Notes: generated from the letters alone by a model not told the origin. Positions 11,640 through 35,999 are shown, counted from the stretch's first letter. The stretch is 64,000 nucleotides of DNA from Candidatus Parcubacteria bacterium (GCA_026395685.1 JAPLYG010000008.1:15225-79224); one strand, 5' to 3'. Translations and numbers: made by a program.

Positions 11640-13154
11640 ATGACTGGCAAAAATTCCAACATCTTAATCACAGCTTTTCTAAAGGTTTTTAACCAAAACC
11701 CTGATTTTAAATTTGTTGATAAATTACTTAAAAAATTTCCAACAGCTGAAATATATCTGGTCGGCGGCAAAGTGCGCGATATTTTACTGCAAAGAGATTC
11801 TTATGATTATGATTTTGTTATCCGCAAAATCAAAGCCAAAGACCTGGAAACATTTTTAGCCCAAGAAGGCTCAGTCAATTTTGTCGGCAAGTCTTTTGGC
11901 GTATTTAAATTTGTTCCCAAAAAATATGACAGCCAAGAACCGATCGATATTGCTCTGCCCCGCACTGAACAGTCATTCATGACCGGCGGATATAAAGACT
12001 TTGATGTCCAGACTGATCCGGAACTGCCCTTGGAAAAAGATCTTGCGCGCCGTGACTTTACCATCAATGCCATGGCAGTAAATATTGCTACCGGAGAAAT
12101 AATTGATCCTTTTGACGGACAAACTGATTTACAGAATAAGCTAATCAGAACAGTAGGCCAGCCAGATGAAAGATTTCAGGAAGATTATACCCGCATGATC
12201 CGCGCCATTCGCTTTTCCACTCAACTATTTTTTAAAATTGACCAGCCGACTTATCTGGCTATTCAAAAACTGGCAGCCAAGATTAAAACCATGGCTACTG
12301 AGAGGCTGACTGAAGAATTTACTAAAATTATTATTTCTCCCAATGCCGAGTATGGGGTTCAAATTTTACAGAAATCAAATTTGCTGAAATATTATCTGCC
12401 TGAGCTGGAACAAGGCGTGGACGTCTCCCAAAACAAACACCACATTTACAGCGTTTTCACCCATAATGTTAAAGCACTCGGCTTTGCCGCTCAAAGAAAT
12501 TATAATCTTAATGTGCGCCTGGCAGCTTTATTTCATGACATTGCCAAACCCCAGGTCAAAGCCGGTGAGGGGCCGGATTCCACTTTTTACAACCATGACA
12601 TTGTCGGCGCCAAAATTACCCGCAAAATTTTACAGCGTTTGAAATATTCCAATGACATCGTTGATAAGGTTTCACATTTGGTAAGACACCACATGTTTTT
12701 CTACAGTTTAGGCGATATCACTGACGCTGCTGTCCGCCGCTTATTGGCGCGCGTGGGCAAAGATAATATCGGTGAAATAATCCAGGTCAGAATCTGCGAT
12801 CGTTTAGGCATGGGCCGTCCCAAAGCCAAGCCATTTAAGCTGATTGATCTGGAAAAACGTTTGCACGAAGTCCAGCTTGATCCGATTTCTGTTAAAATGT
12901 TGAAAATTGACGGCTCGGAATTAATGAAGATATTGGATATCAAACCCGGCCCTAAAATCGGTCTGCTTTTAAATGCGCTTTTAGCCGAAGTACTGGAAGA
13001 TCCCAAAAAAAACAAAAAAGCTTACTTACAAAAACGACTTAAAGAATTAAATAAGCTTTCTGACGACAAACTTAAAAATCTGGCGCCCCAGCTGGATAAA
13101 TATGAAGAGGAACGGAAGAAAGAATACTTTTCCCATGTTAAATGGGTGGAATAG
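11640..13154 (+). CDS. cca: CCA-adding tRNA nucleotidyltransferase (HD domain)
   Basis: YLVGGKVRDILL head-domain motif, HD domain LAALFHDIAKP; 504 aa. Confidence 0.85.
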   Translation: MTGKNSNILITAFLKVFNQNPDFKFVDKLLKKFPTAEIYLVGGKVRDILLQRDSYDYDFVIRKIKAKDLETFLAQEGSVNFVGKSFGVFKFVPKKYDSQEPIDIALPRTEQSFMTGGYKDFDVQTDPELPLEKDLARRDFTINAMAVNIATGEIIDPFDGQTDLQNKLIRTVGQPDERFQEDYTRMIRAIRFSTQLFFKIDQPTYLAIQKLAAKIKTMATERLTEEFTKIIISPNAEYGVQILQKSNLLKYYLPELEQGVDVSQNKHHIYSVFTHNVKALGFAAQRNYNLNVRLAALFHDIAKPQVKAGEGPDSTFYNHDIVGAKITRKILQRLKYSNDIVDKVSHLVRHHMFFYSLGDITDAAVRRLLARVGKDNIGEIIQVRICDRLGMGRPKAKPFKLIDLEKRLHEVQLDPISVKMLKIDGSELMKILDIKPGPKIGLLLNALLAEVLEDPKKNKKAYLQKRLKELNKLSDDKLKNLAPQLDKYEEERKKEYFSHVKWVE

Positions 13155-14411: not shown

Positions 14412-14987
14412 ATGTATCAAATTATAACCATCTCAGGCACACCTGGCTCTGGCAAATCAACTATTGCCCAAAAACTCGCAGAAAAACTTAATGCCGAGCG
14501 CATTTATGTCGGCGCTATCCGACGCGAATTAGCCAGAGAAAAAGGTATTACTCTGGAACAGCTCAATGAATATGGGCTGACCCATCCGGAAACAGATGTA
14601 GATATTGACCAAAAAATTGCAATTGAGGCGCGTGAAGCCGCTAAAAAAGGCATAGTAATAGTTGAAGGCAGAGTCCAATTCCATTTTATTCCTGAATCAT
14701 TCAAGATCTTCATTCATGTTGCCGTGGAAGAAGGCGCCCGCCGTATTTGGAAGCAAATGCAGAATGAAGCTGACAAAAAAATGCGCAATGAAGGTGAAGT
14801 TAAAGACATCAATGCTTTGACCGAGGATATTAAAAAAAGGATAGCTAATGATAAAAAGCGCTATAAAAAATACTATAATCTGGACCATACCGACGGATCT
14901 CATTATAACCTTGTCATTGATACCACTAAAATAACCGCTGAGGCGGCAACCGCTAAAATCCTCAAAGCCCTGCCCAAACTTGACTAA
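14412..14987 (+). CDS. cmk: archaeal-type cytidylate (CMP) kinase
   Basis: ITISGTPGSGKSTIAQKLAEKL P-loop; KKRYKKYYNLD and overall 191-aa layout match Cytidylate_kin2 family. Confidence 0.7.
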   Translation: MYQIITISGTPGSGKSTIAQKLAEKLNAERIYVGAIRRELAREKGITLEQLNEYGLTHPETDVDIDQKIAIEAREAAKKGIVIVEGRVQFHFIPESFKIFIHVAVEEGARRIWKQMQNEADKKMRNEGEVKDINALTEDIKKRIANDKKRYKKYYNLDHTDGSHYNLVIDTTKITAEAATAKILKALPKLD

Positions 14988-16146: not shown

Positions 16147-19023
16147 CTATATCATCTTCTTCAAAAACTGTCCTGTATAACTATTTTTTACTTTAATAAT
16201 ATCCTTCGGAGTGCCCTGAGCAACTATATATCCTCCCTTATCGCCGCCTTCCGGCCCCATATCAATCACCCAGTCAGCGGATTTAATAACATCCAGATTA
16301 TGTTCAATCACTAATATTGTATTACCCTTATCTACTAATTTTTGCAAAACGCCTAACAGCCGGTTGATATCGTCAAAATGCAAGCCGGTTGTCGGTTCAT
16401 CAAGAATATATAAAGTCTTGCCTGTGGCACGGCGTGATAGTTCAGTCGCCAGTTTAACCCTTTGCGCTTCGCCGCCTGACAAGGTCGTAGCGGGCTGTCC
16501 TAATTTAACATAACCCAAACCGACATCGCAGAGAATCATTAATTTATCATGAATAATTGGGATATCTGAAAAAAATCTTTTTGCTTCTTCTACGGGCATA
16601 TCCAAAACTTCGGCAATATTTTTGCCTTTATAATAAATCTCCAGCGCATCTTTAAGATAACGGCTGCCGTGGCATTCTTCACATTCAATATAAACATCAG
16701 GTAAAAACTGCATTTCAATGCGCACCAAGCCTTCACCGGCACAAGCTTCACAGCGACCGCCCACAACATTAAAGCTGAATTTCCCCGCATCAAACCCGCG
16801 CATTTTAGCTTCTGGAATTTGAGTATATAAATCGCGGATATAAGTAAAAACTCCGGTATAAGTTGCGGGATTAGAACGCGGTGTACGTCCAATCGGCGAT
16901 TGATCAACAGTAACAACTTTATCCAAATTGTCCAAACCGACAATTTCCTTATGTTCTGCAGGCTGCTCTTTAGCGCGGAAAAAATGTTTGGCCAAAGCAC
17001 GTGATAAAATATCGATAATCAAAGTGGACTTGCCTGAGCCTGACACGCCGGAAACAGCCACAAACTTGCCCAAAGGAATTTTGCCCTCTACATTCTTCAG
17101 ATTGTTTGCGGTCGCGCCTTTAATGGTAATAAATTTATTATTACCCTTGCGATAAACTTTGCGCGGTTCAATCTTATATTTCCCCGATAAATATAAACCT
17201 GTTAAAGATTCTTTATTCTTCTTAATTTTATCCATTGTGCCGATGTCAACCAATTGCCCGCCGTATTCACCGGCGCCGGGACCAATATCAACAATTAAAT
17301 CAGCTTCTTTCATAATCGCCTCATCATGCTCAACCACAATCACGGTATTGCCCATATCGCGCAACTTTTTCAAAGCATCAATCAGGCGCTTGTTGTCTCT
17401 TTGGTGCAAACCGATTGAAGGCTCATCTAAAACATAAATAATTTCCGTTAAAGACGAGGAAATCTGTTTTGCCAGACGTATTCTCTGCGCTTCGCCGCCG
17501 GCCAAGGTAGTCGCGCTCCTGTCCAAAGTCAAATAATCCAAAGAAACAGCATTTAAATACTCCAAACGTCGTTTAACTTCCTTGATTAACTGCTGAGCGA
17601 TTTTATATTCATTTTCTGTTAAGTTTAATTTCCCCTTATTGGCTTCCGTGCGATACAAACCAGCCTTAGAATTTTTTTCCACCAGATCAAAAAAATCATA
17701 AAGAGTCTGCAAATCCATATTAACCAATTCTGAAATATTCTTATCTAAAACTGTAACCGCCAGGCTTTCGGGTTTTAATCTTTTGCCCTGACAAGTGGGA
17801 CAAATTATTTCTCTCATATAATCCTCGATTTCTTTTTGCACATATTCCGAGTCTGTTTCCCTATATTTCTTTTCTAAATATGGAATAATGCCTTCAAATT
17901 CATGTTTTTTGCCTTCTATCTCAAATTCTTCTTCGCCCGTGCCATATAGGATAATATCAAGTTCTTCTTTTTTAATTTTTTCTACTGGCTTGTCCAGCGG
18001 CACTTTATAATTTCTAGCGACTGTCTGCAGTAATTTATTCATAATCGGCTGATTAGCAGTCAAGCGCGTCCAAACCTTAATCGCTCCTTGTTCAATTGTC
18101 AGACGAGGATTAAAAACCACCAAAAGCGGATCGATTTCCAAACGCACTCCCAAGCCGGTACATTTAGGACAAGCGCCGACCGGAGAATTAAATGAAAAGC
18201 TTCGCAATTCAATTTCCGGCAAATTAATATTGCACTTAGGACAATGCAAATGCTGGGAATAAGTCTGTTCCTGATTATTATCACGCCTTAAAATCGTGAC
18301 CATGCCATTAGCCAGATCCAAAGCTTTATCAACTGCCTGATAAAGCGCTGTTTTATGAATTTTTTCCAATGATGTCTTTTCTACAAAAACATAATCAATC
18401 AGCACATCCATATTATGTTCCGCCTCTTCATCAATCATCATTTTTTCCAGTTCATGCATGCTGAAAATTTTTCCATCTAAGCGCAATTGATAAAACTCAG
18501 CTTTTTTCATTTTTTTTATAACATGATCAAGCTTGCCCTTTTTGCCGATTATTATAGGCGCCAAAACAGCAACCCGAGTTTGAGGCGGCAATTCAAAGAC
18601 TCTTTCCACTATTTGTTGCGCAGTCAATTTTTTAATCGGCTGTCCGCACTTAGGACAGTGAACTATTCCGATTCTGGTAAATAAAAGACGGAGATAATCA
18701 TAAATCTCCGTAATAGTTCCAACGGTTGAACGCGGATTATTGGATGTAGTTTTTTGATCAATGGCAATAACCGGAGAAAGCCCTTCGATCTGATCAACAT
18801 CAGGCTTATCCATTACGCCGATAAACTGGCGGGCGTAGGAAGATAAACTTTCCACGTATTGCCTCTGCCCCTCGGCAAAAATCGTATCAAAGGCCAAAGA
18901 AGATTTGCCTGAGCCGGATAAACCGGTAATGACAATAAACTTATTCTTGGGAATTTCCACATTGATATTTTTCAGATTGTGGACGCGCGCGCCTCTGATA
19001 ATGATTTTGTCTTGTTTGGGCAT
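16147..19023 (-). CDS. uvrA: excinuclease ABC subunit A
   Basis: 958 aa; two ABC ATPase modules ([25 protein letters not shown]), zinc-finger cysteines, LSGGEAQRI signature. Confidence 0.95.
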
Positions 19024-26282: not shown

Positions 26283-28001
26283 ATGGTATTTAAAAAACCA
26301 CACATTCCCCATCGCGAGGGAAATTATTCAAAAGAACCCAAATTACGCATCATGGTTTTGGGCGGGCTGGAAGAAGTCGGCCGCAACATGACTGTTTTAG
26401 AATTTGGCAATGACATTATTATTGTTGACATGGGCCTGATGTTTCCCGAAGAAGACATGCCGGGCATTGATTATATTATTCCCAATATCTCCTACTTTAA
26501 AGGTAAGGAAAAAAATATTCGCGGCGTAATTATTACTCATAGCCACATGGATCATATCGGCGGCATTCCTCACATAATGCCCAAAATCGGCAATCCCATT
26601 ATTTATACCGCCAAATTATCAGCCGGTATTATTCAAAAAAGGCAGGAGGAATATAAGTCAGCTCCAAAACTCAAATTTTACATCATTGATGAAAACACCC
26701 ATTTGAAACTGGGAAATTTCAATGTAGAATTTTTCCGAGTTAATCATAATGTGCCTGACAGCTTTGGCGTTGTGATCAAAACTCCGATCGGAACTATTGT
26801 GCATACCGGAGATTTTAAAATTGATCATTCCCCTATTAATGACAAGCCTGCTGACCTGGGCCGCATTGCTCAAATCGGCTCCCAGGGAGTCTTGGCTTTA
26901 ATGGCTGATTCCACTGATGCCGAACATGAAGGCTATCAGATTTCTGAAGCCAGAGTCGGCGAAGAATTGGAAGGTATTTTTGAAAAAGCGACCAACCGCA
27001 TTATTATCGGCACGTTTGCTTCACTCTTAAATCGCGTTCAGCAAGTTATTACTATCGCTGAAAAATTCGGACGCAAAGTTATGATTGAAGGCCGCAGCAT
27101 GACAACCAATGTAGAAATTGCCCATCAGCTCGGCTATATGAAAATCAAGCCAGGCACTTTATTGGAAGCAGAACATTATAATGAAAAAAAATATCCTGAT
27201 GATAAAATTGTGATTATCGGCTCCGGCGCTCAAGGTGAACAAAATGCCTTTTTAGTACGCTTTGCAGAAGATGAACATCGTTTTTTGCATATTAAAGAGG
27301 GCGATACTGTTATTTTTAGTTCCTCGGTTATTCCCGGCAATGAACGCACGATTCAAAATTTAAAGGATACTTTTTATCGCAAAGGCGCCAGAGTTATCCA
27401 TTACAAACTTATGGATGTTCATGCCGGCGGACACGCCAAAAAAGAAGATTTAAAACTATTGATCCGTTTAATCAAGCCTAAATATTATTTTCCGATCGAA
27501 GCCAACCATTATATGCTGCGCTTAAATGGCGAAATTGCGGAAAGTTTGGGAATACCCAAGGATCATATTTTTATTGCTGAAAATGGACAAGTAGTAGAAT
27601 TTACCCACAATGCCGGACACTTAACCCCGGAAAAAGTCCCGACCGATTATGTAATGGTGGACGGACTGGGAGTCGGCGATGTATCAGATATTGTTTTGCG
27701 TGATCGTCGGGTCATGGCTGCTGACGGCATGATTGTAATTATTGCCACCATTGATCGTAAAACCGGAAATATAATCGGCAATCCTGATATTATTTCCCGC
27801 GGTTTTGTTTATATGAAAGAAAATAAAGAATTGATTGAAACGACCAGAATGAAAGCCAAAAAAATATGCGGAGACACCGATCCTAAATCACCGGCTTTCG
27901 ATGATTATATTAAAAATAAAATCCGCGATGATATTGGCCAGTATCTCTATATTAAAACCAAACGACGACCCATGATTTTACCCGTAGTAATTAAAGTCTA
28001 A
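26283..28001 (+). CDS. rnj: ribonuclease J (metallo-beta-lactamase/beta-CASP)
   Basis: ITHSHMDHIGGIP, beta-CASP motifs, 572 aa. Confidence 0.9.
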   Translation: MVFKKPHIPHREGNYSKEPKLRIMVLGGLEEVGRNMTVLEFGNDIIIVDMGLMFPEEDMPGIDYIIPNISYFKGKEKNIRGVIITHSHMDHIGGIPHIMPKIGNPIIYTAKLSAGIIQKRQEEYKSAPKLKFYIIDENTHLKLGNFNVEFFRVNHNVPDSFGVVIKTPIGTIVHTGDFKIDHSPINDKPADLGRIAQIGSQGVLALMADSTDAEHEGYQISEARVGEELEGIFEKATNRIIIGTFASLLNRVQQVITIAEKFGRKVMIEGRSMTTNVEIAHQLGYMKIKPGTLLEAEHYNEKKYPDDKIVIIGSGAQGEQNAFLVRFAEDEHRFLHIKEGDTVIFSSSVIPGNERTIQNLKDTFYRKGARVIHYKLMDVHAGGHAKKEDLKLLIRLIKPKYYFPIEANHYMLRLNGEIAESLGIPKDHIFIAENGQVVEFTHNAGHLTPEKVPTDYVMVDGLGVGDVSDIVLRDRRVMAADGMIVIIATIDRKTGNIIGNPDIISRGFVYMKENKELIETTRMKAKKICGDTDPKSPAFDDYIKNKIRDDIGQYLYIKTKRRPMILPVVIKV

Positions 28002-28149
28002 GACATAAATATTCCTAAAAAATTCCCCCTAATATGGGGAATTTTTTAATTATTAGTAGATTAGTATGGTATTAGTAAATTAGTAGCCTAACTAAACCGA
28101 AGCAATGCCCTAAAACCCTTTATTCTTAGCCAAAACCAGCCACTCAGCA

Positions 28150-28178
28150 TTGACAAAATCAAGTATTTATGCTAATAT
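28150..28178 (+). promoter_or_regulatory. promoter P1 TTGACA-N17-(TG)CTAATAT for GC-rich block gene A
   Basis: Perfect -35, 17-nt spacer, extended -10; same architecture at 30652 and 33386. Confidence 0.55.
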
Positions 28179-28359
28179 TCCCTATTAAAGTAATTATTTA
28201 AGCTATTGAAATAAGGTAATAATTGTTATCTTATTTTAGTAGCTTATTGCTGCTGAATTTGCGAAGGGAGAAACAATACCCTTTTCACATAGATAAAGTG
28301 TTTTTCAGACAAAGAACTTTGACAACTTTACGCATAACAACCAAAAAGGAAGGTGAAAG

Positions 28360-29838
28360 ATGGATAGGAAAAACCTGACGGAAGTGATTCCGGGAGTATT
28401 GTATGACACCACCGTAGGGGATGATTCTCCGCTGCTTTTCAAGACCCAACCCGACGTCCTGTACGACGATGAGGGCCTGGAAATCAGCATCATCGTTGGC
28501 GACTTTGAACTCAAGTGTAAAAGCGAAGAGTTCAACAATAAAACACAGCTCAATTTCCACGAACCACAGGAGCTGCAAGCCAACCTGACGACGATCCTTA
28601 CATCGATCGTTTTCAGTAACAACGCCGAAGACAGCGACCCAACGTGGAAGTACGTGAGTAAAGGAATGGTCGGGGAAATCAAAGGAACTGCCGCGTCCAC
28701 GGCCAAAGAAACCGAGGATGCCGCGCCCATTCCCATGCCCCCCCTGATTGCGGAGGAAAAACCCGAGGCCATTCCCGCTCCACCCGCCGACGAGGAAAAA
28801 AAACCTGAGCCGGCAAAAGACCCGGAACCGCCAAAGCCCTGGGACGAGGAAGAAGAATTTGAGGACTTTCCCGATTTCCCCGTTGACGAGGGGAAAAAAC
28901 CCGAGCCTGAAAAAGCTCCGGAATTCCCAAGGCCCGGGGAAGAAGAAGATCCTTTCCGTTTTGATGTACGAGAACCCGAGCCTGAAAGAGCGCCAATACC
29001 GCCGCGACCCAGGGAAGACTGGGATCGCCCCGCGGATGAAACAGACGATGACATTTTAAGCCATCGCCGCCCACTTCCCCGACGGGAAGAACCGCCTGAA
29101 GAGGAGGCACCGATGAAACGAGGGATTCTCACTTACATTTTGGCGGCAATCGGGATCATCCTGATTTCCGCAATGCTGATTCTTCTGGGTCTCTTTCTCG
29201 GAACCTGGTGGGGTCAAGCCGACATTGACCGCCTGAAGGCCGACAACGGGAAACTCCAGCAGGAGATGAAGGGACTGAAAGCCCTGAATCCGCAAATCAA
29301 AAAGCTGCAGGAGGACATAGTCATTCTTCAGCAGGATAACCGGCTCTACAAGCTGAAAGCGGACCGCTACAGCCAGATTCTCACGAAACTGCTGTGGCCT
29401 ATTCCCGATGACTCGGAGCTGCAAAACTTCGATGTCAACAATAATTTCTGCGCTAACTGGTGCCAGTGGTTGAAGGAGAGCCTTCCCCTGGTTCGCCAGG
29501 ACGCGAAGGCCAACTGTCCGGCATGTTCCAAGCCGGTTGTGCAATCTAGCCGCAACACGAACGTAAAAAAGGCAGTTGCGGCTTGCCCGACTTGCCCGCC
29601 GGCCACTTGCACGAATTGTGTGGAAAGGGATAAAATCTATCCGACGACTCCGCAACAAGTACAGACCCCACCGGAACAAGTGCAGTCCCCGCCGCCACCG
29701 CAGCCTCAACCGGCTACGGAAAACGGTCCGAGGACAAAAGTTTACCCCGGAACTCCGGCGCCCGGTCCTGTCCAACAGGCAAACGCTCCGGCTCCGGAAT
29801 CCAACACCACCGTCAGAACACAAACTATCGACCCCTGA
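28360..29838 (+). CDS. GC-rich bitopic membrane protein: cytoplasmic N-domain with Pro/Glu-rich PEP repeats, TM, coiled coil, Cys-rich region, Pro-rich tail ending TQTIDP
   Basis: 492 aa; TM GILTYILAAIGIILISAMLILLGLF; codon GC3 much higher than neighbours; antisense ORFs are artefacts of high GC. Confidence 0.7.
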   Translation: MDRKNLTEVIPGVLYDTTVGDDSPLLFKTQPDVLYDDEGLEISIIVGDFELKCKSEEFNNKTQLNFHEPQELQANLTTILTSIVFSNNAEDSDPTWKYVSKGMVGEIKGTAASTAKETEDAAPIPMPPLIAEEKPEAIPAPPADEEKKPEPAKDPEPPKPWDEEEEFEDFPDFPVDEGKKPEPEKAPEFPRPGEEEDPFRFDVREPEPERAPIPPRPREDWDRPADETDDDILSHRRPLPRREEPPEEEAPMKRGILTYILAAIGIILISAMLILLGLFLGTWWGQADIDRLKADNGKLQQEMKGLKALNPQIKKLQEDIVILQQDNRLYKLKADRYSQILTKLLWPIPDDSELQNFDVNNNFCANWCQWLKESLPLVRQDAKANCPACSKPVVQSSRNTNVKKAVAACPTCPPATCTNCVERDKIYPTTPQQVQTPPEQVQSPPPPQPQPATENGPRTKVYPGTPAPGPVQQANAPAPESNTTVRTQTIDP

Positions 29839-29876
29839 TCCCTTTAAGGGACAACTTCTTTCACAAGGAGAAAGAA

Positions 29877-30590
29877 ATGAAGAAATTTTTCTACGGCATC
29901 GTAATTCTGATGATCATCGGCTTCGTGTTCCCGGCTCTGGCTGACAGCAATGTCCCGAGCAGGGAATCCAACACGCCGATGGCCTTCCCCACGAAACCGA
30001 CCGTCACCTGGGGAGCGAACAACTACCTGAACGTGGCTCTCCCCGAAAACCCGAGCGTTCCCCTGGTGTTCGGCTACAACGGGAATGGATTTCCCGGCGG
30101 CACCAACTGGCAGATCACGGAAAAGCAAAACTCGCCGAGCGAGCCCCTGCTTTTCACCGTGGAAGTCCAGCTTCCGGGCAGCGCCTACACCGGCCTGACC
30201 CCGAGCATGCTGATCAACACCAGCAAAGCGAACGAGGGCGAAAGATCCGGAATCAACCCCTGGTCTTCCGCCGCCGGCCTGCCTGACAAAGCGCAGTGCC
30301 GGGTCAAAGACGGTCGCTTCCAGTGTCGCTCCGGCTGGGCTGGACAATGGGAAGACGTCAAGATGCCCAATGCCAATTCCGAGGACATCGTCATCTACGA
30401 GCGCGACGTCCCCGACCCCGAGCATCCCAGCCGGGTCGGTGGCAAACTCTGGGTGATCTACAACACCAAGACTGGTGAGACCATCGTGATTTATCCCAAC
30501 ATCACGGGCCTCTACCGTACCATCCGATACGGATTTGCCGCAACCGGCGGAACCATTCTGCTGTGCTTCGTGGCTTTCTTTGTCATTTGA
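29877..30590 (+). CDS. GC-rich secreted protein with MKKFF signal peptide and C-terminal hydrophobic anchor (GG-TILLCFVAFFVI)
   Basis: SD AAGGAG 6 nt upstream; signal peptide MKKFFYGIVILMIIGFVFPALA; 39-nt gap from gene A suggests co-transcription. Confidence 0.65.
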   Translation: MKKFFYGIVILMIIGFVFPALADSNVPSRESNTPMAFPTKPTVTWGANNYLNVALPENPSVPLVFGYNGNGFPGGTNWQITEKQNSPSEPLLFTVEVQLPGSAYTGLTPSMLINTSKANEGERSGINPWSSAAGLPDKAQCRVKDGRFQCRSGWAGQWEDVKMPNANSEDIVIYERDVPDPEHPSRVGGKLWVIYNTKTGETIVIYPNITGLYRTIRYGFAATGGTILLCFVAFFVI

Positions 30591-30604
30591 ACACAAATGA
30601 ATAC

Positions 30605-30641
30605 AAGCCGAGTATGCCTTTAAGGCAGCTCGGCTTTTTTA
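30605..30641 (+). terminator. rho-independent terminator after gene B
   Basis: AAGCCGAG...CTCGGCTT + T6. Confidence 0.65.
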
Positions 30642-30651
30642 TTTCAATTTA

Positions 30652-30680
30652 TTGACAAAAGTTATAGAATCTGCTAATAT
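30652..30680 (+). promoter_or_regulatory. promoter P2 TTGACA-N17-(TG)CTAATAT
   Basis: Same architecture as P1/P4. Confidence 0.55.
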
Positions 30681-30768
30681 CTTATATTAAACTATAAATT
30701 ATAGTTACTACGTACATTTATAAAATTTTAACCCTAAACACTTCCCTACGGGGAGCAAAGGAGTCAAG

Positions 30769-31467
30769 ATGAAGAAATTCTTTGTGATCATGTTTTTGCT
30801 GGTAGTAGGCTTTACGGTCTTGGCTCAGGCCGAGCCGGCACAGCCTCCGCCTGCGAGCAACCAGCCGGGCGTACTGCCCAATGTTAATGTCATTGTCCCT
30901 CCCTACTTATGGATTGATAACTTTGTAACCGGGGAAAATGGCATTCTGGAACACCATGTTGCCAACCTGAGACTTATTCAGGAATGGCTGCGTGATAATC
31001 CCTCCGACATTGCTGCTTTGATCGGCATGGTCTCTGACCTGAAAATCAGAGGCTATTGCTACTACAATTATTCAACAGGCTTTTATAGTCTGAAGTACAA
31101 TCAAGCCGGCAGTACTGTCAATCAGGGAGATCGAGTCTGCCAGGAAGCCCTGTCGCTCAGCCGGGCAATTTCCATCCGCAACTGGTTGCTTACGCCGCAA
31201 AACTGGCTAAAAGACAAACAGGGCAATCCCATTAAAATTGATGAGTTCCGTATCAGAATCCTGGATGTGAAAGCTCTGGGATTACGCGGGGGCGGCAACT
31301 TTCCCAACCAGTCAGTCGCTGTCTGGATGCTGTCTTTTAATCAGGCAAAGCAAGGTCCTGGCATTCTGACGCTGACGCAGGGCCCTCCTGCGCCCGTGCC
31401 AACGCCCGAGATAGCTCCTCGCAGGCGACCCAAGACAACGATCTATACTCAGAAAATTGACCCTTGA
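30769..31467 (+). CDS. GC-rich secreted protein with MKKFF signal peptide, Pro-rich tail ending YTQKIDP
   Basis: SD AAAGGAG; signal peptide MKKFFVIMFLLVVGFTVLAQA; C-terminus shares TQxIDP with gene A. Confidence 0.7.
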   Translation: MKKFFVIMFLLVVGFTVLAQAEPAQPPPASNQPGVLPNVNVIVPPYLWIDNFVTGENGILEHHVANLRLIQEWLRDNPSDIAALIGMVSDLKIRGYCYYNYSTGFYSLKYNQAGSTVNQGDRVCQEALSLSRAISIRNWLLTPQNWLKDKQGNPIKIDEFRIRILDVKALGLRGGGNFPNQSVAVWMLSFNQAKQGPGILTLTQGPPAPVPTPEIAPRRRPKTTIYTQKIDP

Positions 31468-31477
31468 TTTAAAATCA

Positions 31478-31510
31478 ACCGGGCAGTGAGTTTTCACTCG
31501 CCCGGTTTTT
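31478..31510 (+). terminator. rho-independent terminator after gene C
   Basis: CCGGGCAGTGAG..TCACTCGCCCGG + T5. Confidence 0.6.
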
Positions 31511-31836
31511 CTTTTCTAAATATTTGCTAAAATATTATTCGCACGGTATATTGCAACTATATGATAGGTAAGTATGCTTTTTACATTCTAATTTTGGCTA
31601 ACTTAGGATAATCCCTTAAAATATTGACTTTTTATAAAGCAAATGATAAACTCCCATATCAAGTAAGAATAAGCTTTTTAAAAGAATTCATTTGTCTAAA
31701 TTGATTCTTTCAAGCAGCTTAAAAGCTGTTGAGAATAATAGGTTGAGTTTTTTCCATAAACCAAAAGTGTTTTGTTATTTCACAAAAATTCTCCCTCACG
31801 GGAGACTAGATTTCCCTGAAGGGAAAGGAGGATCAA

Positions 31837-33183
31837 GTGATGATCAGAAATAAGATGACCTTGCTCTTGCTTTGGATCAGTTTTTTTGCCATTGGCGCCT
31901 CCGGGCAGTTCAACTGCATTGACGGTGATGTGCACGAAGGTGATAAAAACTACTATGGCGATCGTGATCCTGACGGCGACGGTTATAATAACCGAGTTGA
32001 TTGCAGTGATCAGGATCCCAATCGTTGGGTATTCATCATTGCATATCCTGACCATGATGGTGACGCTATGCCTGAACAAGGCCCGACCATTAATATCTGC
32101 TCCGGCACTACAACTCATGCCCCTGCGGGCTGGACTTTCAATGACTCACCAATGGATCCCTGCCCCAATGATCCCGAGAACATCTGCGGGGTAACAGTTC
32201 CATTTTGCCAGCTCGCTGGCGTTGCCAATGGCCATACGACTACCCTAACTGCCACAGCTACTTACACCAATGGCTCCTTTGACCGAGTGATTTTCTACGC
32301 AGGAAATATGGTGGTCAAAACTGATACCACTCCAGCTGACGGCTGGACTGCTATCCTAACCAATGTCCCCAACGGTGTTTACACCTACCATGCCATTGCC
32401 TTTGCCACTGACGGCAATTCTGCCTTGTCTAACTTTGTTACCATTACCATCAATGACACTGGCGCTTGTATGCCGACACTGACCATCACATGGGCTTATG
32501 CCATTGCTCCTGAGAAAACCTACTATGGTGGCTGGTTTGGTTCTTGCTTTACCAGCATTTTCGGACAAGATCCCTGGTGGCAGTTTGGACCGTTTAGCAG
32601 CTGCCATGAATGCAGCCAATCCGGCGTAGTTTTTCCCGGTAGTTTGAATTTGGGCTTTTGCGAATTCAGTGGCACTGTGCCCAGAAGCCTGAACGAAAAT
32701 CCAACAGCGCCCTTTACCACCGATCGCGGTGATATTGTGGACTATTTCATTACCGGCTATCCTGACGGACACATTTATAATGGCTTGGCTCCTGGATCGC
32801 CGGCAGCTTACTTCGACAACTGTGCCAGTATTATTCAGCTCTCAGTAGCTCAGATAAATCATCCGTGGGGTGCCAACTATTTCATTGCCTTTACTGCCCC
32901 GCTGGCAGGTAATACGGCTAATATCTTCGTTACCTCGCCGATTGACTCTGATAGTGACGGCTGGATGAATGCTTGTCCTCCCAACACAACTTGTCAGGCG
33001 GATAACTGTATCCGTTTTGAAAATCAGACCCAGCTGGATTCAAACAGCGATGGAGTCGGTGATGCCTGTACTGCCAATCCTGACCCGAATTTTTGGGATC
33101 AAGATAATGACTGGTACTTGGACGGACCCAATGTTGCGGAATCTGATCGGGATCATTACCCGACTGATAGAACCCGGCATTAA
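31837..33183 (+). CDS. secreted Ca-binding protein with thrombospondin type-3-like Asp-rich repeats and Ig-like domain (paralog D, moderate GC3)
   Basis: Signal peptide; DPDGDGYNNRVDCSDQD, DSDSDGWMNACP, DSNSDGVGDAC motifs; SD AAGGAGG; ends PTDRTRH. Confidence 0.8.
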   Translation: MMIRNKMTLLLLWISFFAIGASGQFNCIDGDVHEGDKNYYGDRDPDGDGYNNRVDCSDQDPNRWVFIIAYPDHDGDAMPEQGPTINICSGTTTHAPAGWTFNDSPMDPCPNDPENICGVTVPFCQLAGVANGHTTTLTATATYTNGSFDRVIFYAGNMVVKTDTTPADGWTAILTNVPNGVYTYHAIAFATDGNSALSNFVTITINDTGACMPTLTITWAYAIAPEKTYYGGWFGSCFTSIFGQDPWWQFGPFSSCHECSQSGVVFPGSLNLGFCEFSGTVPRSLNENPTAPFTTDRGDIVDYFITGYPDGHIYNGLAPGSPAAYFDNCASIIQLSVAQINHPWGANYFIAFTAPLAGNTANIFVTSPIDSDSDGWMNACPPNTTCQADNCIRFENQTQLDSNSDGVGDACTANPDPNFWDQDNDWYLDGPNVAESDRDHYPTDRTRH

Positions 33184-33196
33184 ATTTTAACTATTA

Positions 33197-33237
33197 CGGG
33201 CTGCGACTTAGACACATCTAAGCCAGCCCGTTTTTTT
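33197..33237 (+). terminator. rho-independent terminator after paralog D
   Basis: CGGGCTG-CGACTTAGACACATCTAAG-CCAGCCCG + T7; near-identical copy after paralog E. Confidence 0.7.
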
Positions 33238-33385
33238 ATTGAAAAAAGATCTCCAAAAATTACATTTCTTACCCTTTTATCCCTGTCTGCGAAATTACCC
33301 ATAAATACGCCTAAAACCACATTTTTAAAATTGCTTATTTTAGCTAATTTTACCCTAATTCTAGCCAAAATAAAACATCAACCTC

Positions 33386-33414
33386 TTGACATTTGCAAAA
33401 AAATATGCTAATAT
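33386..33414 (+). promoter_or_regulatory. promoter P4 TTGACA-N17-(TG)CTAATAT for paralog E
   Basis: Same architecture as P1/P2. Confidence 0.55.
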
Positions 33415-33660
33415 ACCCTATTAAACTAATCTTAGATAAAAGCCGAATTTAAGCTATTAAAAAGAGTTATATAATAATTAATTCTTTTTAGCAGCTTAAT
33501 AAGCTGTTTTGGATATTTAGAGAAATAAAAGCATGGACTTTAACTCCTGCTTATTGACATAGATGGTTAAGCATTTTTGGATAAAGGAATTTGTTTTTTG
33601 ACAACACCCTACTCTCCCCCAAAGGAGACGATTTTCCCCGCGGGGGAAAAGGAGAATACC

Positions 33661-35001
33661 ATGAACGCGAAAAGACTTATTACGGTTCTTCTGGTTCTCG
33701 GCTGTTTGACTTCGACCATGGGTGCGACCTGCATCGACGGCGACCTCAACGAGGGCGACAAAACCGTCATCAACAAAAACGACCACGACAACATCGACAC
33801 TGACGGCGACGGCGTGCTCGACATCAACGACTGCGCCCCGCTCGACCCGAGCAAGTGGGCCGAGAAAGATGCCCGCCCCGACACTGACGGCGATAACCTG
33901 CCCGAAAATGGACCGGCAATGCAGGTCTGCAGTGGGAACACCACCCCTGCGCCTATTGGCTGGACCTGGGTGGCTTCGCCGCTCGATCCCTGCCCCAATG
34001 ACCCGCAGAACATCTGCGGTACGGTCAATCCGACCTGCCAGATCACAGCGGTGGCCAGCGGCCACACTGTGTCCCTCACGGCGACTGTCGCTTACACGAG
34101 CGGCACTATCGCCCGAGTGGAATTCTATAAGGGTATCACGCTGATCGGGACGGACAACACAGCCAGCAATGGCTGGAATCTGACCTGGACCAACGTGCCG
34201 AATGGGACCTACACGCTTCAGGCCATTGCGTTTGCCTCTGACGGCAAGACCGCAACCTCTAACGAGGTCACGGTTACCGTCAATGTCGGCGCTCCGACAT
34301 GCGTGCCCACGCTGGCAATTAGCTGGGGCTATAACATTCCCCAGAACACGACCTACTACAACTCGTGGTATGGATCCTGTTTCACCACCTTCGACGGCCA
34401 GGACCCCTGGTGGCAGTATGCGCCCTATGGCTACTGCCGCGAGTGCGCTCAGGCTGACGAAGTGTTTGCCGGAAGCTTCAACGAGGGTTTCTGTGATTTC
34501 AACAACACGGTTCCCAAAGTGCTTAACGGCAACCCGCTCGCTCCGTTCACCACGGATCGTGGCGACATCGTTGACTATGCCCTTGTCGGTTACACTGACG
34601 GGCATATGTACAACGGTCTGGCCCGCATGCCGACTGCGACCTTCAACAACTGCATTACTACGGTCAGTCTGCCTGTGGTCCCCGTGAACCAGGCCTGGGG
34701 TGCGAACTTCAGGGTGTATTTTACGGATGCGGTCGATCCGATTGATGGGGACACCATCAACGTGATCGTCAGCACGCCGATCGATTCCGACAACGACGGT
34801 TTCCCGAATGCCTGCCAGCCCGGCACCACGTGTCAGGCCGACAACTGCATTCGCTTCGAGAATCCCGAGCAGACCGACACCGACCATAACGGCGTCGGCG
34901 ATGCCTGCACGAACCATGCCAATCCGGACGAGAACGATCCGGACAATGACTGGTTCATGAATTTCGAAGACGCATTTCCGTATGATCGGACGCGTCATTA
35001 G
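33661..35001 (+). CDS. secreted Ca-binding TSP3-like repeat / Ig-like protein (paralog E, very high GC3); start at MNAKRL
   Basis: Internal ATG with SD GGAGA 5 nt upstream and a signal peptide right after; ORF-track extension to 33577 reads through the leader; long minus-strand ORF 33517..35034 is a GC artefact; ends PYDRTRH. Confidence 0.8.
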   Translation: MNAKRLITVLLVLGCLTSTMGATCIDGDLNEGDKTVINKNDHDNIDTDGDGVLDINDCAPLDPSKWAEKDARPDTDGDNLPENGPAMQVCSGNTTPAPIGWTWVASPLDPCPNDPQNICGTVNPTCQITAVASGHTVSLTATVAYTSGTIARVEFYKGITLIGTDNTASNGWNLTWTNVPNGTYTLQAIAFASDGKTATSNEVTVTVNVGAPTCVPTLAISWGYNIPQNTTYYNSWYGSCFTTFDGQDPWWQYAPYGYCRECAQADEVFAGSFNEGFCDFNNTVPKVLNGNPLAPFTTDRGDIVDYALVGYTDGHMYNGLARMPTATFNNCITTVSLPVVPVNQAWGANFRVYFTDAVDPIDGDTINVIVSTPIDSDNDGFPNACQPGTTCQADNCIRFENPEQTDTDHNGVGDACTNHANPDENDPDNDWFMNFEDAFPYDRTRH

Positions 35002-35014
35002 AACTTGACTACAA

Positions 35015-35056
35015 ACGGGTTGCGACTTAGACAAATCTAAGCCAGCCCGTTTTTTA
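35015..35056 (+). terminator. rho-independent terminator after paralog E
   Basis: Same CGACTTAGACA(A/C)ATCTAAGCCAGCCCG hairpin as after D. Confidence 0.7.
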
Positions 35057-35311
35057 TTTATACGAATATTATTTTATATACAACGAATGGCAGATTAATC
35101 ATCTTAATTAACCTTGCGCAGAGTATCCTTATAAAATGTAATAGGTGAAGCTTTATTATGCGAATATTATTTTTATACTGCGAATAACTGATTTTGAAAT
35201 ACTCTTCCAATTACCAATGCCTAATGCCCAATACCAAATTACAGTCTATTTACAGCCAGAGTATAATTAAGTAGAATTAATATATTGTATATACTGGTAA
35301 CCAATCAAACC

Positions 35312-35340
35312 TTGACAAAACGCTAAAATTATAGTAAAAT
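35312..35340 (+). promoter_or_regulatory. putative promoter TTGACA-N17-TAAAAT for rnpB
   Basis: Located ~35 nt upstream of the predicted RNase P RNA 5' end. Confidence 0.45.
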
Positions 35341-35371
35341 ATCCATATAACTGAACACTATTGTTCAGTAG

Positions 35372-35968
35372 CTAAATATCCAAACAAGCAGATGATCACC
35401 CCTCCGAAGCTTTAGCAAAGGAGGGGAGGAAAGTCCGGACTTTATGCCCTGCTCCGCACCGGAGATTCTAAATCCAAAAATCCTAAATCTTAAACATTTT
35501 TTAATTTTGTTATTTGAACATTTGAATTTGTTTGAAATTTGGTGCTTGAGATTTGGTGCTTCCGTTGCGGAGCAACGGTAAGGGTAACGGGTAACGCCCG
35601 CCCGTTTAATAGCAATATTAAATGAGGACCAGTGCCACAGAGACAATTCTAGCGAGTCCCGCTTTGCGGGGCGGGGTTGACTCGGCGGCTTATAAGCCGC
35701 CTCGCCAAAGGTGAAAAGTATCTCGATGTTTTTTGTTCTCGAGACAAAAGGCTACGAGAATCGGCCTCTGGCAACAGAGTGTCCGCGGTAAACTCTACCT
35801 AAAGCAAGGACAAACCCACCCCAGCGCAAGCAACGGTGGTGACAAGTAGTCCGCTAGAGCTCGGCAGCAATGCCCAGCCCAGATAGATGATCATCCTTCG
35901 ACAACCTCAGGATAATCTCCTGATAAGTCGAGGACAAAATCCGGCTTATAGTTTGTTTGGATATTCAG
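35372..35968 (+). ncRNA. rnpB: RNase P RNA (bacterial type A) with large AT-rich insertion
   Basis: GGAGGGGAGGAAAGUCCGG (P4), GGGUAACGCCCGCCC, GACCAGUGCCACAGAGAC, AAGGUGAAA, ACAAAAUCCGGCUUAUAG match universally conserved RNase P RNA regions in order; P1 pairing AUAUCCAAACAA/UUGUUUGGAUAU. Confidence 0.85.
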
Positions 35969-35999
35969 CTATAATTTTAAATTTATAAAATATTCTATT

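What the first reader, a model, noticed from the sequence alone, without database searches (positions are those of the whole stretch)
28179..33510. Conserved ~100-nt leader module shared by three block transcripts, with a palindromic site TAGCAGCTTAATAAGCTG
Leaders of A (28179-28265), D (31651-31735) and E (33415-33510) share ordered blocks: (C)TCCCTATTAAAGTAA, TTAAGCTATTGAAA/TAAGCTTTTTAAAA, and a near-palindrome TTTAG(C/T)AGCTTA(A/T)T(AA/TG)GCTG about 100-150 nt before the start codon. Long conserved AT-rich leaders upstream of GC-rich genes suggest a common regulatory RNA or an operator for a dedicated transcription factor.
Basis: seen in the sequence. Interest (0 to 1): 0.55.

Follow-up and report, generated by a model that had tools for sequence, protein, structure and literature searches.

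The report
Conserved two-hairpin mRNA leader in Parcubacteria
Three surface-protein genes in this Parcubacteria genome, and at least 19 more genes in related genomes, start with the same strong promoter followed by an untranslated RNA leader that can fold into two competing hairpins; this leader matches no Rfam family, and I infer that it controls how long these messages last or how they are processed.

Summary

- **Block 1** (NCCCTATTAAAnTAA) lies directly after the -10 box of a near-consensus promoter. It also occurs at island promoters that lack the hairpin.
- **Blocks 2 and 3** are the two arms of one 20-24 bp hairpin, P1.
- **The "palindromic site"** is the 3' arm of P1 plus a second hairpin, P2 (AGYAGC/GCURCU). 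P2 can form only if the lower part of P1 opens.

I found 22 distinct copies in nine assemblies or contigs of related Parcubacteria. All lie in a variable, GC-rich surface-protein island downstream of RNase J, and all are in sense to the next gene.

P1 shows strong covariation: 87% of cells are paired, 12 of 20 pairs carry compensatory changes, and 0 of 500 shuffles reach this. P2 shows modest covariation, located at the nucleotide that P1 keeps mismatched. The two folds differ by about 0-7 kcal/mol.

G-U pairs outnumber A-C mismatches 47 to 11. Loop lengths vary from 4 to 18 nt in P2, and the P1 apex tolerates up to 117 nt. These features favour RNA over a DNA operator. Rfam has no match.

The function is inferred, not shown. 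My best guess is a leader that governs mRNA processing or stability. A binding site for an RNA-binding regulator is almost as likely.

The parts
28150..28178 (+). Promoter of leader A: TTGACA, 17 nt, TGcTAATAT (extended -10)
   Evidence: 10/12 match, TG present. The same architecture precedes nearly every copy in relatives.
28179..28193 (+). Block 1 of A (TCCCTATTAAAGTAA): start-site-proximal box directly after the -10
   Evidence: It also occurs at hairpin-less island promoters, so it is separable from the hairpin.
28198..28247 (+). P1 hairpin of leader A: 22 contiguous pairs, apex AAUU
   Evidence: -32.2 kcal/mol, z -5.9; 76.5 bits.
28238..28254 (+). P2 hairpin of leader A (AGUAGC-UUAUU-GCUGCU). 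Its 5' arm is the 3' arm of lower P1.
   Evidence: energetics.
31624..31652 (+). Promoter of leader D (TTGACT, 17 nt, TGaTAAACT; weaker -10)
   Evidence: 9/12 match, TG present.
31653..31666 (+). Block 1 of D (CCCATATCAAGTAA), a diverged copy
31669..31722 (+). P1 hairpin of leader D, with internal mismatches at positions 8, 12 and 21
   Evidence: 69.7 bits. On its own it folds only weakly (z -1.4).
31713..31730 (+). P2 hairpin of leader D (AGCAGCU-UAAA-AGCUGUU). In D, P2 plus upper P1 is as stable as full P1.
   Evidence: ddG -0.4 kcal/mol.
33386..33414 (+). Promoter of leader E (TTGACA, 17 nt, TGcTAATAT)
33415..33429 (+). Block 1 of E (ACCCTATTAAACTAA)
33449..33499 (+). P1 hairpin of leader E
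   Evidence: inverted repeat I10; -23 kcal/mol, z -3.5; 82.2 bits.
33490..33508 (+). P2 hairpin of leader E (AGCAGCUU-AAU-AAGCUGUU).
   Evidence: ddG 2.7 kcal/mol.
30652..30694 (+). Promoter and block 1 of gene C. Same promoter cassette with a short 88-nt leader and no P1/P2.
   Evidence: repeat D3; no model hit.
28360..30590 (+). Genes A (492 aa) and B (237 aa, signal peptide and C-terminal anchor) served by leader A. GC 0.55 and 0.58.
   Evidence: An A-like/B-like pair lies behind the orthologous leader in L019.
31840..33183 (+). Gene D (447 aa, signal peptide, Big_7-like), served by leader D
33661..35001 (+). Gene E (446 aa, signal peptide, Big_7 / TSP_3), a paralogue of D, served by leader E

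Best explanation
**What it is (shown).** The module is a promoter-plus-leader cassette used by genes of a variable cell-surface island in one clade of Parcubacteria. A near-consensus sigma-70-type promoter with an extended -10 is followed by a start-site box (NCCYTATTAAAC). Then comes a structured 5' untranslated RNA whose core is two mutually exclusive hairpins.
- P1 is a 20-24 bp AU-rich stem. Its lower 14 bp are almost invariant: UAAGCU/AGCUUA, a kept 1x1 mismatch, a kept U-G wobble, then AAA/UUU. Its apex is free to vary and can carry insertions of more than 100 nt.
- P2 (AGYAGC/GCURCU) re-uses the 3' strand of lower P1.
- The RNA can therefore be either full P1, or upper P1 stacked directly on P2 with the 5' strand released.

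**What it does (inferred).** I propose that it acts after transcription on the fate of the mRNA.
- P1 would be a barrier or entry site for RNA processing, either a double-strand-specific cut of RNase III type or 5'-to-3' trimming by RNase J.
- Once the 5' strand of lower P1 is removed, P2 snaps shut next to upper P1.
- The message is then left with a fully paired 5' end that resists RNase J. This would give long-lived, highly expressed messages for surface proteins.

The RNA nature, structure, conservation and gene association are shown. The processing steps and the stabilising outcome are not.
For: **Structure and covariation**
- P1 folds well in A and E.
- In 22 distinct copies, 87.3% of cells are paired, against 35-58% when partners are slid by 1-3 columns. 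Twelve of 20 pairs have changes on both sides, and 0 of 500 shuffles reach this.
- P2 has 6 of 6 pairs in 19 of 22 copies. A chance complement within 32 nt occurs in 4% of shuffles per sequence.
- P2 covaries at the nucleotide that P1 keeps unpaired: U-A 10, C-G 4, U-G 3.

**Balance between the two folds**
- The two conformers differ by -0.4 to +7.1 kcal/mol.
- The conserved mismatch (19 of 22) and the conserved wobble (17 of 22) weaken lower P1.

**RNA rather than DNA**
- G-U pairs outnumber A-C mismatches 47 to 11.
- The reverse strand scores 35-40 bits lower.
- Loop and apex lengths vary widely.
- Every copy is sense-oriented between a promoter and the Shine-Dalgarno sequence.

**Specificity**
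- About 300 kb of window and syntenic loci were scanned with the model. The only strong hits, 21 bits or more on the + strand, lie in the island. Relatives with an empty island have none.

**Fit with a stability or expression role**
- Promoters, Shine-Dalgarno sequences and terminators are all near consensus.
- Fifteen of 18 downstream products carry a signal peptide, lipobox or membrane anchor.
- P1 is never shorter than about 20 bp. From my own knowledge, this is the length class cut by RNase III.
- These genomes encode RNase J.
- S-layer mRNAs are known to owe long half-lives to 5' UTR stem-loops (PMC10221546). In B. subtilis, structures and ribosomes in the 5' UTR block RNase J1 (PMC5737220).
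Against: - There are no transcript data. The start sites, any processing and the mRNA half-lives are all unknown.
- P1 begins 11-47 nt after the -10 box. In the primary transcript it is therefore not a 5'-terminal stem-loop, as classical stabilisers are.
- The lower stem is far more conserved in sequence than RNase III or a simple roadblock would need. This points to a sequence-specific partner, although the double pairing duty of the 3' strand explains part of it.
- A near-isoenergetic design suggests a reversible switch rather than one-way processing.
- An rnc gene was not found in the DNA held here. That covers only about 377 kb of fragments, so the result is uninformative.
- One copy (L002) lacks P2.
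- A purine-rich Shine-Dalgarno-like box after P2 is present in only 11 of 22 copies.
- Copies within a genome are paralogous and several loci are orthologous, so the counts overstate the number of independent events.
Confidence: 0.35

Rival explanations
1. The element is a protein- or RNA-operated switch, a regulon-level riboregulator. A dedicated RNA-binding protein or a small RNA recognises the invariant lower P1 (mismatch plus U-G wobble) or its released 5' strand. Binding shifts the P1/P2 balance and so co-regulates all island genes that carry the leader, for example in response to host contact.
For: - The lower stem is conserved in sequence beyond what pairing requires.
- The 1x1 mismatch and the U-G wobble are conserved, as is typical of protein-recognised hairpins.
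- The conformers are near-isoenergetic.
- Three to four copies per genome sit in front of unrelated genes.
Against: - No conserved candidate regulator gene lies next to the island in any of nine loci.
- No readout is evident. P2 is not a terminator and neither hairpin touches the Shine-Dalgarno sequence, which lies 29-136 nt downstream of the end of P1, typically 74-136 nt.
- The dual pairing constraint on the 3' strand already explains much of the sequence conservation.
Confidence: 0.3
2. The element is a transcription attenuator. P2 plus the following U residues is a terminator and P1 is the antiterminator.
For: - The P1/P2 overlap has the classical antiterminator/terminator topology.
- P2 is followed by UUU(U) in about half of the copies.
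Against: - P2 has a 6-9 bp stem worth only -2.4 to -9.1 kcal/mol.
- Only 1-5 U residues (mean about 3) occur in the 8 nt after it. Several copies have GAAUUUGC, CAAUGAUU or UAGAAAUU there.
- The genuine terminators of these genomes are long GC-rich stems with six or more U residues.
- P1 forms first and is more stable, so the default state would always be read-through unless some unknown factor intervenes.
Confidence: 0.08
3. The element is a DNA operator. The inverted repeats (TAAGCT / AGCTTA / AAGCTG) are half-sites for a dimeric transcription factor that binds downstream of the start site.
For: - E and D have perfect 14-15 bp palindromes, CAGCTTA(A)TAAGCTG.
- The element lies close to the promoter.
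Against: - Arm spacing varies from 4 to 18 nt for P2, and by more than 100 nt for P1.
- The pairing relies on G-T, with 47 G-U against 11 A-C.
- The conservation is of complementarity, through compensatory changes, and not of a half-site sequence.
- The titled 20-mer is unique to E.
Confidence: 0.05
4. The similarity reflects inheritance only. The promoter-leader cassette was copied along with island genes and looks conserved because the copies are young, or the hairpins are recombination sites of an integron-like cassette array.
For: - The island is highly variable, holding 0-6 genes between the same flanks.
- D and E are paralogues.
- The cassette, including the promoter spacer, is similar between copies.
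- A hairpin with a conserved base and a variable centre superficially resembles attC.
Against: - The sequence between the conserved blocks is diverged, and the apex and spacers differ completely.
- Pairing is kept by double substitutions.
- Orthologous leaders in L030 and L036 keep the arms and P2 while the loops and spacers drift. Overall identity is 62-73%, no higher than the 72-79% of the coding genes.
- The element sits in front of unrelated proteins.
- No integrase or recombinase is present in any locus.
- The hairpin lies between the promoter and the Shine-Dalgarno sequence, not at cassette 3' ends.
Confidence: 0.07

Closest known systems
5' UTR stem-loop of Lactobacillus S-layer (slpA) mRNA and similar leaders of abundant surface-protein genes
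   Same: Both combine a strong promoter and a long untranslated leader with a stable stem-loop in front of a very abundant secreted surface protein. For slpA, the leader is credited with a long mRNA half-life (PMC10221546, read).
   Different: - There is no sequence relation.
- The slpA structure involves the 5' end itself, whereas P1 here starts after an unpaired stretch.
- The present element has a second, competing hairpin.
- It is shared by several unrelated genes per genome.
5' stabilisers and processed leaders of Bacillus mRNAs (hbs, and from my own knowledge aprE, ermC, the SP82 RNase III site with polypurine stabiliser, and cryIIIA STAB-SD)
   Same: Both occur in organisms with RNase J 5' exonuclease. 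Structures or bound ribosomes in the 5' UTR set mRNA life-time, and an endonuclease cut in a structured leader can create the decisive 5' end (PMC5737220; SP82 RNase III sites are cited in PMC4838370).
   Different: - None of these shares sequence or the P1/P2 overlap.
- The Shine-Dalgarno-like box needed for STAB-SD or SP82-type stabilisation is found in only half of the copies.
- Cleavage is not demonstrated here.
Antiterminator/terminator leaders (trp, pyr, bgl/sac RAT elements)
   Same: Two overlapping, mutually exclusive hairpins lie in a leader. There is a conserved internal loop in the first hairpin, as in protein-bound RAT elements (from my own knowledge).
   Different: - P2 lacks a terminator-grade stem and U tract.
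- P1 is the more stable fold, the opposite of RAT systems.
- No cognate regulator gene is linked to the element.
Shared long 5' UTRs of the E. coli cspA paralogue family (cold box)
   Same: Several genes in one genome carry a long leader with a conserved box near the 5' end, and the leader adopts alternative structures that affect mRNA stability (from my own knowledge).
   Different: - There is no sequence relation.
- The csp genes are paralogues, whereas the genes here are mostly unrelated.
- No evidence here points to temperature as a signal.
boxA elements of rrn and lambda nut leaders
   Same: The 5' arm of P1 (GCUCUUGAAAA / GCUUUUGAAAA) resembles boxA, which from my own knowledge reads GCUCUUUAACAA or GUUCUUUGAAAAC.
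   Different: - In P1 this stretch is base-paired, and half of it stays paired in both conformers.
- There are no long operons to antiterminate.
- The rrn leaders of these genomes were not available for comparison.

Membership tests
Any described RNA family (Rfam 15, 4227 models) | A match to a curated covariance model at or near its gathering score | tested here: not met
   - Gathering search of the window: only tRNA-Ala.
- Permissive search of 27900-35400: only E>1 noise.
- L026, L027 and L030 at E<=0.1: only RNase P RNA.
Intrinsic terminator / attenuator | A GC-rich stem immediately followed by a U tract (at least 5-6 U in 8 nt) | tested here: not met
   - P2 alone is worth -2.4 to -9.1 kcal/mol.
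- There are 1-5 U residues in the 8 nt after it.
- The scan found no terminator-like site at the three leaders.
Riboswitch | A conserved ligand-binding core: a multi-helix junction or conserved unpaired nucleotides whose geometry is fixed | tested here: not met
   - The conserved part is a plain helix base.
- The apex is unconstrained in sequence and length, from 2 to 117 extra nt.
- No conserved junction or loop was found.
Dimeric transcription-factor operator | Inverted half-sites at fixed spacing, equally readable on both strands | tested here: not met
   - Spacing is 4-18 nt for P2 and varies by more than 100 nt for P1.
- G-U pairs outnumber A-C mismatches 47 to 11.
- The reverse strand scores 35-40 bits lower.
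RNase III substrate | About two turns (20 bp or more) of near-continuous double-stranded RNA | tested here: met
   All 22 copies keep 20-24 pairs, with one or a few internal mismatches.
RNase III substrate | Actual cleavage by the organism's RNase III, and presence of rnc in the genome | not testable with these tools
   - There are no transcript data.
- No RNase III signature (ERLEFLGD-like) occurs in the about 377 kb held. These are genome fragments, so absence means nothing.
5'-terminal stem-loop mRNA stabiliser | A stem-loop at or within a few nucleotides of the 5' end of the transcript | tested here: inconclusive
   - P1 starts 11-47 nt after the -10 box. That is roughly 5-40 nt from the predicted start, so the feature is not met for the primary transcript.
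- It would be met only after the proposed trimming.
- The start site is predicted, not mapped.
boxA / Nus-factor site | A single-stranded GCUCUUUAACAA-like box in a leader, matching the organism's own rrn boxA | tested here: inconclusive
   - The resemblance was judged by eye only.
- The stretch is paired in P1.
- No rrn leader from these genomes is held for comparison.
Integron attC-type recombination hairpin | Sits at the 3' end of promoter-less cassettes, with R-box GTTRRRY and a linked tyrosine recombinase | tested here: not met
   - The hairpin lies between a promoter and the Shine-Dalgarno sequence.
- The conserved base is UAAGCU/AGCUUA.
- No recombinase is present in nine syntenic loci.

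The most novel reading that the evidence does not exclude
The P1/P2 element is a new class of bistable leader RNA that works as a genuine sensor. It would be operated by a still unidentified protein, small RNA or small molecule, and would switch a whole set of fast-evolving surface proteins on or off together. For episymbiotic Parcubacteria that could mean a response to host contact. The unusual GC-rich coding sequences behind AT-rich leaders would be part of the same expression strategy.
Probability: 0.15. Interest if true: 0.75.

Novelty: new variant of a known kind. Interest (0 to 1): 0.55.

Why it matters
To my knowledge, almost nothing is known about gene regulation or mRNA turnover in the Candidate Phyla Radiation, and most of these organisms are not in pure culture.

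A leader RNA that is conserved, supported by covariation and repeated before the variable surface-protein genes gives a concrete, testable handle on three things:
- how these cells express the proteins that most likely mediate attachment to hosts or particles;
- a portable strong promoter plus leader for heterologous expression;
- a sequence marker for locating such surface islands in metagenomes.

If the two-hairpin design proves to be a processing-activated 5' cap against RNase J, or a factor-operated switch, it would add a new example to the small set of known bacterial mRNA-stability devices.

Tried and rejected
- **Rfam.** The gathering search, a permissive search of the region and a search of three related loci found no family for the leaders.
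- **Public pattern scans.** The genome collection gave 7 hits, of which only L002 is a real copy. The metagenome collection gave 17 hits, of which only L009/L012, L011 and L019 are real copies. The rest are coding-region chance matches with no promoter and poor hairpins. Two scans of viral contigs with P1+P2 patterns found nothing.
- **Protein route.** Gene B is an orphan. Gene E has only one close relative outside its genome, and that contig starts inside the leader.
- **The titled 20-mer as a conserved site.** Rejected, because it occurs only in E.
- **Block 1 as part of the RNA structure.** Rejected. It also occurs at hairpin-less island promoters and in weaker form at the RNase P RNA promoter. 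I read it as a promoter/start-site element. Pairing of block 1 with downstream G-rich boxes was checked by eye and is not consistent between copies.
- **Terminator reading of P2.** Rejected.
- **Purine-rich Shine-Dalgarno-like box after P2 as an obligatory part.** Rejected, because it is present in only 11 of 22 copies.
- **Integron-like recombination hairpins.** Rejected, because no recombinase is present and the position is wrong.
- **boxA resemblance.** Left as an untested lead.
- **RNase III signature.** A search in the held DNA found nothing, which is uninformative.
- **Literature.** Searches for described structured RNAs in Patescibacteria returned nothing specific.

Full report
**Setting.** The window has about 38% G+C, but 28.3-35.0 kb reaches 45-58%. 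This stretch holds five + strand genes.

| Gene | Coordinates | Notes |
|---|---|---|
| A | 28360-29838 | |
| B | 29877-30590 | |
| C | 30769-31467 | |
| D | 31840-33183 | paralogue of E, Big_7 / TSP_3 signatures |
| E | 33661-35001 | paralogue of D, Big_7 / TSP_3 signatures |

A, B and C have no Pfam match. Upstream lie a solute-binding protein and RNase J (26283-28001). Downstream lie an RNase P RNA and a polysaccharide gene cluster. The proteins identify the source as a "Candidatus Parcubacteria bacterium" metagenome-assembled genome.

**Checking the observation.** Four near-consensus promoters (TTGACA, 17 nt, TGnTAATAT) stand at 28150, 30652, 31624 and 33386.
TGCTAATATNCCCTATTAAA matches A, C and E, against 0.11 expected.
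- Blocks 2 and 3 occur in A, D and E only. A two-arm pattern hits exactly these three places, with none in 100 shuffles.
- The two blocks are complementary. They form a hairpin, P1, of -32.2 kcal/mol (z -5.9) in A, -23.0 (z -3.5) in E and -16.6 (z -1.4) in D.
- Plain local alignment is significant for A-E (z 9) and D-E (z 12) but not for A-D (z 1.3). By sequence alone, the A-D link would not pass.
- The "palindromic site" of the title is found only in E, even with three mismatches.

**Anatomy.** Aligning the three copies shows P1 with an invariant base, UAAGCU/AGCUUA. Between A and D/E there are double compensatory changes higher up. The 3' arm of lower P1 (AGYAGCUUA) can alternatively pair with a downstream GCUGYU to form a second hairpin, P2. 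P1 and P2 therefore exclude each other in their lower and 5' parts. The window coordinates are:

| Leader | P1 | P2 |
|---|---|---|
| A | 28198-28247 | 28238-28254 |
| D | 31669-31722 | 31713-31730 |
| E | 33449-33499 | 33490-33508 |

**Relatives.**
- A covariance model of P1 finds only the three copies in the window, at 82, 76 and 70 bits. The next best hit scores 17 bits, and the reverse strand scores 35-40 bits lower.
- One exact-pattern scan of 185,579 species genomes returned one true relative, a "Candidatus Falkowbacteria" genome (L002), and six coding-region chance hits.
- The metagenome scan returned L009/L012, L011 and L019 as true copies, among 17 hits.
- All true hits have the same promoter, block 1, P1 and a downstream Shine-Dalgarno sequence plus start codon.
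- L002 and L019 share the synteny of solute-binding protein, RNase J, then the island. I therefore fetched loci around close RNase J homologues.
- The frame SecG, solute-binding protein, RNase J, [0-6 hypothetical or surface genes], tRNA synthetase, RNase P RNA and sugar transferase is conserved. The bracketed island is variable.
- Model and pattern searches of these loci gave further copies in L026 (2), L027 (2), L030 (4), L036 (4), L012 (a second copy), L009 and L019. Three of these carry 47-117 extra nucleotides at the apex.
- Loci whose island is empty or nearly empty (L028, L032, L033, L034, L037), and the non-syntenic L035, gave no hit.
- In total there are 22 distinct copies in nine assemblies or contigs. 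All lie inside the island, all are in sense to the next gene, and the end of P1 lies 29-136 nt, typically 74-136 nt, from the start codon.

**Evidence for the structures.**
- *P1, 22 copies, 20 pairs.* Of all cells, 87.3% form standard pairs, against 35-58% when partners are slid by 1-3 columns. Twelve pairs show changes on both sides, in 39 cells. No shuffle out of 500 reaches any of the five measures.
- Position 8 is a conserved 1x1 mismatch (19 of 22). Position 9 is U-G in 17 copies and C-G in 5. Position 11 occurs as A-U (9), G-C (9), G-U (3) and U-A (1).
- *Caveat on P1.* The alignment joins the two arms with the variable apex left out. Several copies are paralogues or orthologues, so cells are not independent events.
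- *P2.* The six core pairs are complete in 19 of 22 copies and 5 of 6 in two more. L002 lacks P2. A chance complement within 32 nt occurs in 4% of shuffles per sequence.
- In 17 copies, 95% of P2 cells pair. The third pair occurs as U-A (10), C-G (4) and U-G (3), and the fourth as A-U (15), G-C (1) and G-U (1).
- The third P2 pair uses exactly the nucleotide that is mismatched in P1, so it cannot be explained by P1.
- *Caveat on P2.* The 3' arms of P2 were picked as the best complement, which favours pairing. The covariation evidence for P2 is modest.
- *Orthologous leaders.* Those of L030 and L036 keep the promoter, block 1, both arms and P2, while apex and spacers drift.

**RNA or DNA?**
- Outside the two special positions, G-U/U-G pairs number 47 and A-C/C-A mismatches 11. 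Seventeen of the 47 are the one inherited wobble.
- The P2 loop ranges from 4 to 18 nt, and the P1 apex from 2 to 117 extra nt.
- These features, the fixed sense orientation and the position between promoter and Shine-Dalgarno sequence favour a transcript structure. They argue against a fixed-geometry operator for a dimeric protein.

**Balance of the two folds.** With constraints, full P1 is favoured over "upper P1 + P2" by only -0.4 to +7.1 kcal/mol, typically 2-5. In the second fold, upper P1 and P2 abut without a spacer, and the first ten nucleotides of the P1 5' arm are released. The conserved mismatch and wobble weaken lower P1. This looks like selection to keep P2 competitive.

**Block 1.** The box after the -10 (consensus A/T-C-C-Y-T-A-T-T-A-A-A-C) accompanies nearly all P1-bearing promoters. 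It also occurs at hairpin-less island promoters (window C; L002 5089). A weaker form is seen at the RNase P RNA promoter, and housekeeping promoters lack it. I read it as a discriminator or initial-transcribed element of this promoter class, separable from P1/P2. Its role is not tested.

**What the leaders serve.** Fifteen of 18 downstream products begin with a signal peptide, lipobox or membrane anchor. Several belong to the D/E, B-like or A-like families and others are unrelated. Island genes are GC-rich in six genomes, with third-position G+C of 0.40-0.77 against 0.26-0.43 in flanking genes. Leaders have about 20-34% G+C.

**Interpretation.**
- *Shown:* a promoter-leader cassette with a conserved two-hairpin RNA that matches no Rfam family, specific to a variable surface-protein island of one Parcubacteria clade.
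- *Inferred:* it acts post-transcriptionally.
- *Preferred model:* P1 is a processing site or barrier. All copies keep at least 20 bp, which from my own knowledge is the length class recognised by RNase III, and these genomes encode RNase J. Removing the 5' strand of lower P1 lets P2 close next to upper P1. That leaves a fully paired 5' end refractory to 5' exonuclease, and hence a stable message.
- *Analogues:* S-layer mRNA leaders (PMC10221546) and Bacillus 5' UTR devices against RNase J1 (PMC5737220).
- *Confidence:* I give this about 0.35.
- *Main rival:* a factor-operated switch (about 0.3) is nearly as likely. It is favoured by the extreme sequence conservation of lower P1 and by the near-equal energies. 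It is disfavoured by the lack of a linked regulator gene and of an obvious readout.
- *Lesser rivals:* an attenuator is unlikely because P2 is weak and is followed by few U residues. A DNA operator, an integron-like recombination site and mere shared ancestry are each unlikely, for the reasons given above.

**Comparison with known systems, and novelty.**
- The element works most like known structured leaders that set mRNA fate, and it has the topology of antiterminator/terminator pairs.
- It is not a member of any tested family.
- The features tested and not met are an Rfam match, terminator features, a riboswitch-type core, operator geometry and attC features.
- The RNase III length criterion is met, but cleavage cannot be tested here.
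- I classify it as a new variant of a known kind: a new leader RNA family with an unusual overlapping two-hairpin design.

**Limits.**
- No expression data exist for these uncultured organisms in the tools available.
- Promoters and start sites are predicted from consensus.
- Both large collection scans were exact-pattern scans, so diverged copies elsewhere in these genomes or in other clades would have been missed.
- Only the neighbourhood of RNase J was sampled in relatives, which biases the apparent restriction to the island. Within the roughly 300 kb sampled, however, the restriction is clean.

Noticed in passing
window 35369-35971 (+): This is an RNase P RNA gene. Rfam RF00010 scores 99.7 bits over 35523-35964, just under the gathering score of 100, so it was missed in the default search. 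An AT-rich helix insertion of about 125 nt, flanked by the inverted repeat 35450-35474 / 35550-35574, interrupts it. The orthologues in L030 and L027 score 172 and 161 bits.
   Followed up: partly
window 28360-35001; islands of L002, L026, L027, L030 and L036: Island genes are much richer in G+C than the rest of the genome. Third-position G+C is 0.40-0.77 against 0.26-0.43 in flanking genes, in six genomes, while their promoters and leaders stay AT-rich. The hairpin-less first island genes of L030, L036 and L026 are among the least GC-rich. The cause is unknown; candidates are codon selection, protection from AU-specific nucleases or biased gene conversion in a recombination hot spot.
   Followed up: partly
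window 28053-28091; L027 about 14820-14860; L030 about 11790-11830: Clusters of ATTAGT(A) repeats (three or more in 60 nt) occur once per locus. Each lies 50-100 nt upstream of an island promoter, in reverse orientation in L030. This could be a protein-binding array. At the same position L019 has tandem ACAACTYTAC repeats.
   Followed up: partly
window 33196-33236 and 35015-35055; L001 about 1545-1585: The terminators after paralogues D and E are 95% identical long hairpins (ACGGGYTGCGACTTAGACA.ATCTAAGCCAGCCCGTTTTTT). A similar hairpin follows the E orthologue in L001. The whole unit of promoter, leader, gene and terminator therefore appears to have been duplicated.
   Followed up: no
window 30741-30755, 31790-31805, 31811-31827, 33613-33628, 33632-33650: Small GC-rich hairpins lie immediately 5' of the Shine-Dalgarno sequences of C, D and E, for example UUUCCC-UGAA-GGGAAA followed by GGAGG. 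They are kept with compensatory changes in the E orthologue of L001 and occur in similar form in L019a and L026_2. They may further shape translation or decay.
   Followed up: no
L019 (- strand) 2190-2100; L009 (- strand) 1656-1817; L030 13120-13180: Three copies of P1 carry insertions of 47-117 nt at the apex. In L019 the insertion contains a GC-rich palindrome. It resembles GC-rich palindromes seen elsewhere in these genomes (L001 2270-2350, L026 about 17690-17720). This suggests small palindromic mobile insertions that land in hairpin loops.
   Followed up: no
L037 12232-12573: In a relative with an empty island, the site between RNase J and the sugar transferase holds a fragment of an rve_3 transposase gene. 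This is consistent with the site being a hot spot for insertion and turnover.
   Followed up: no
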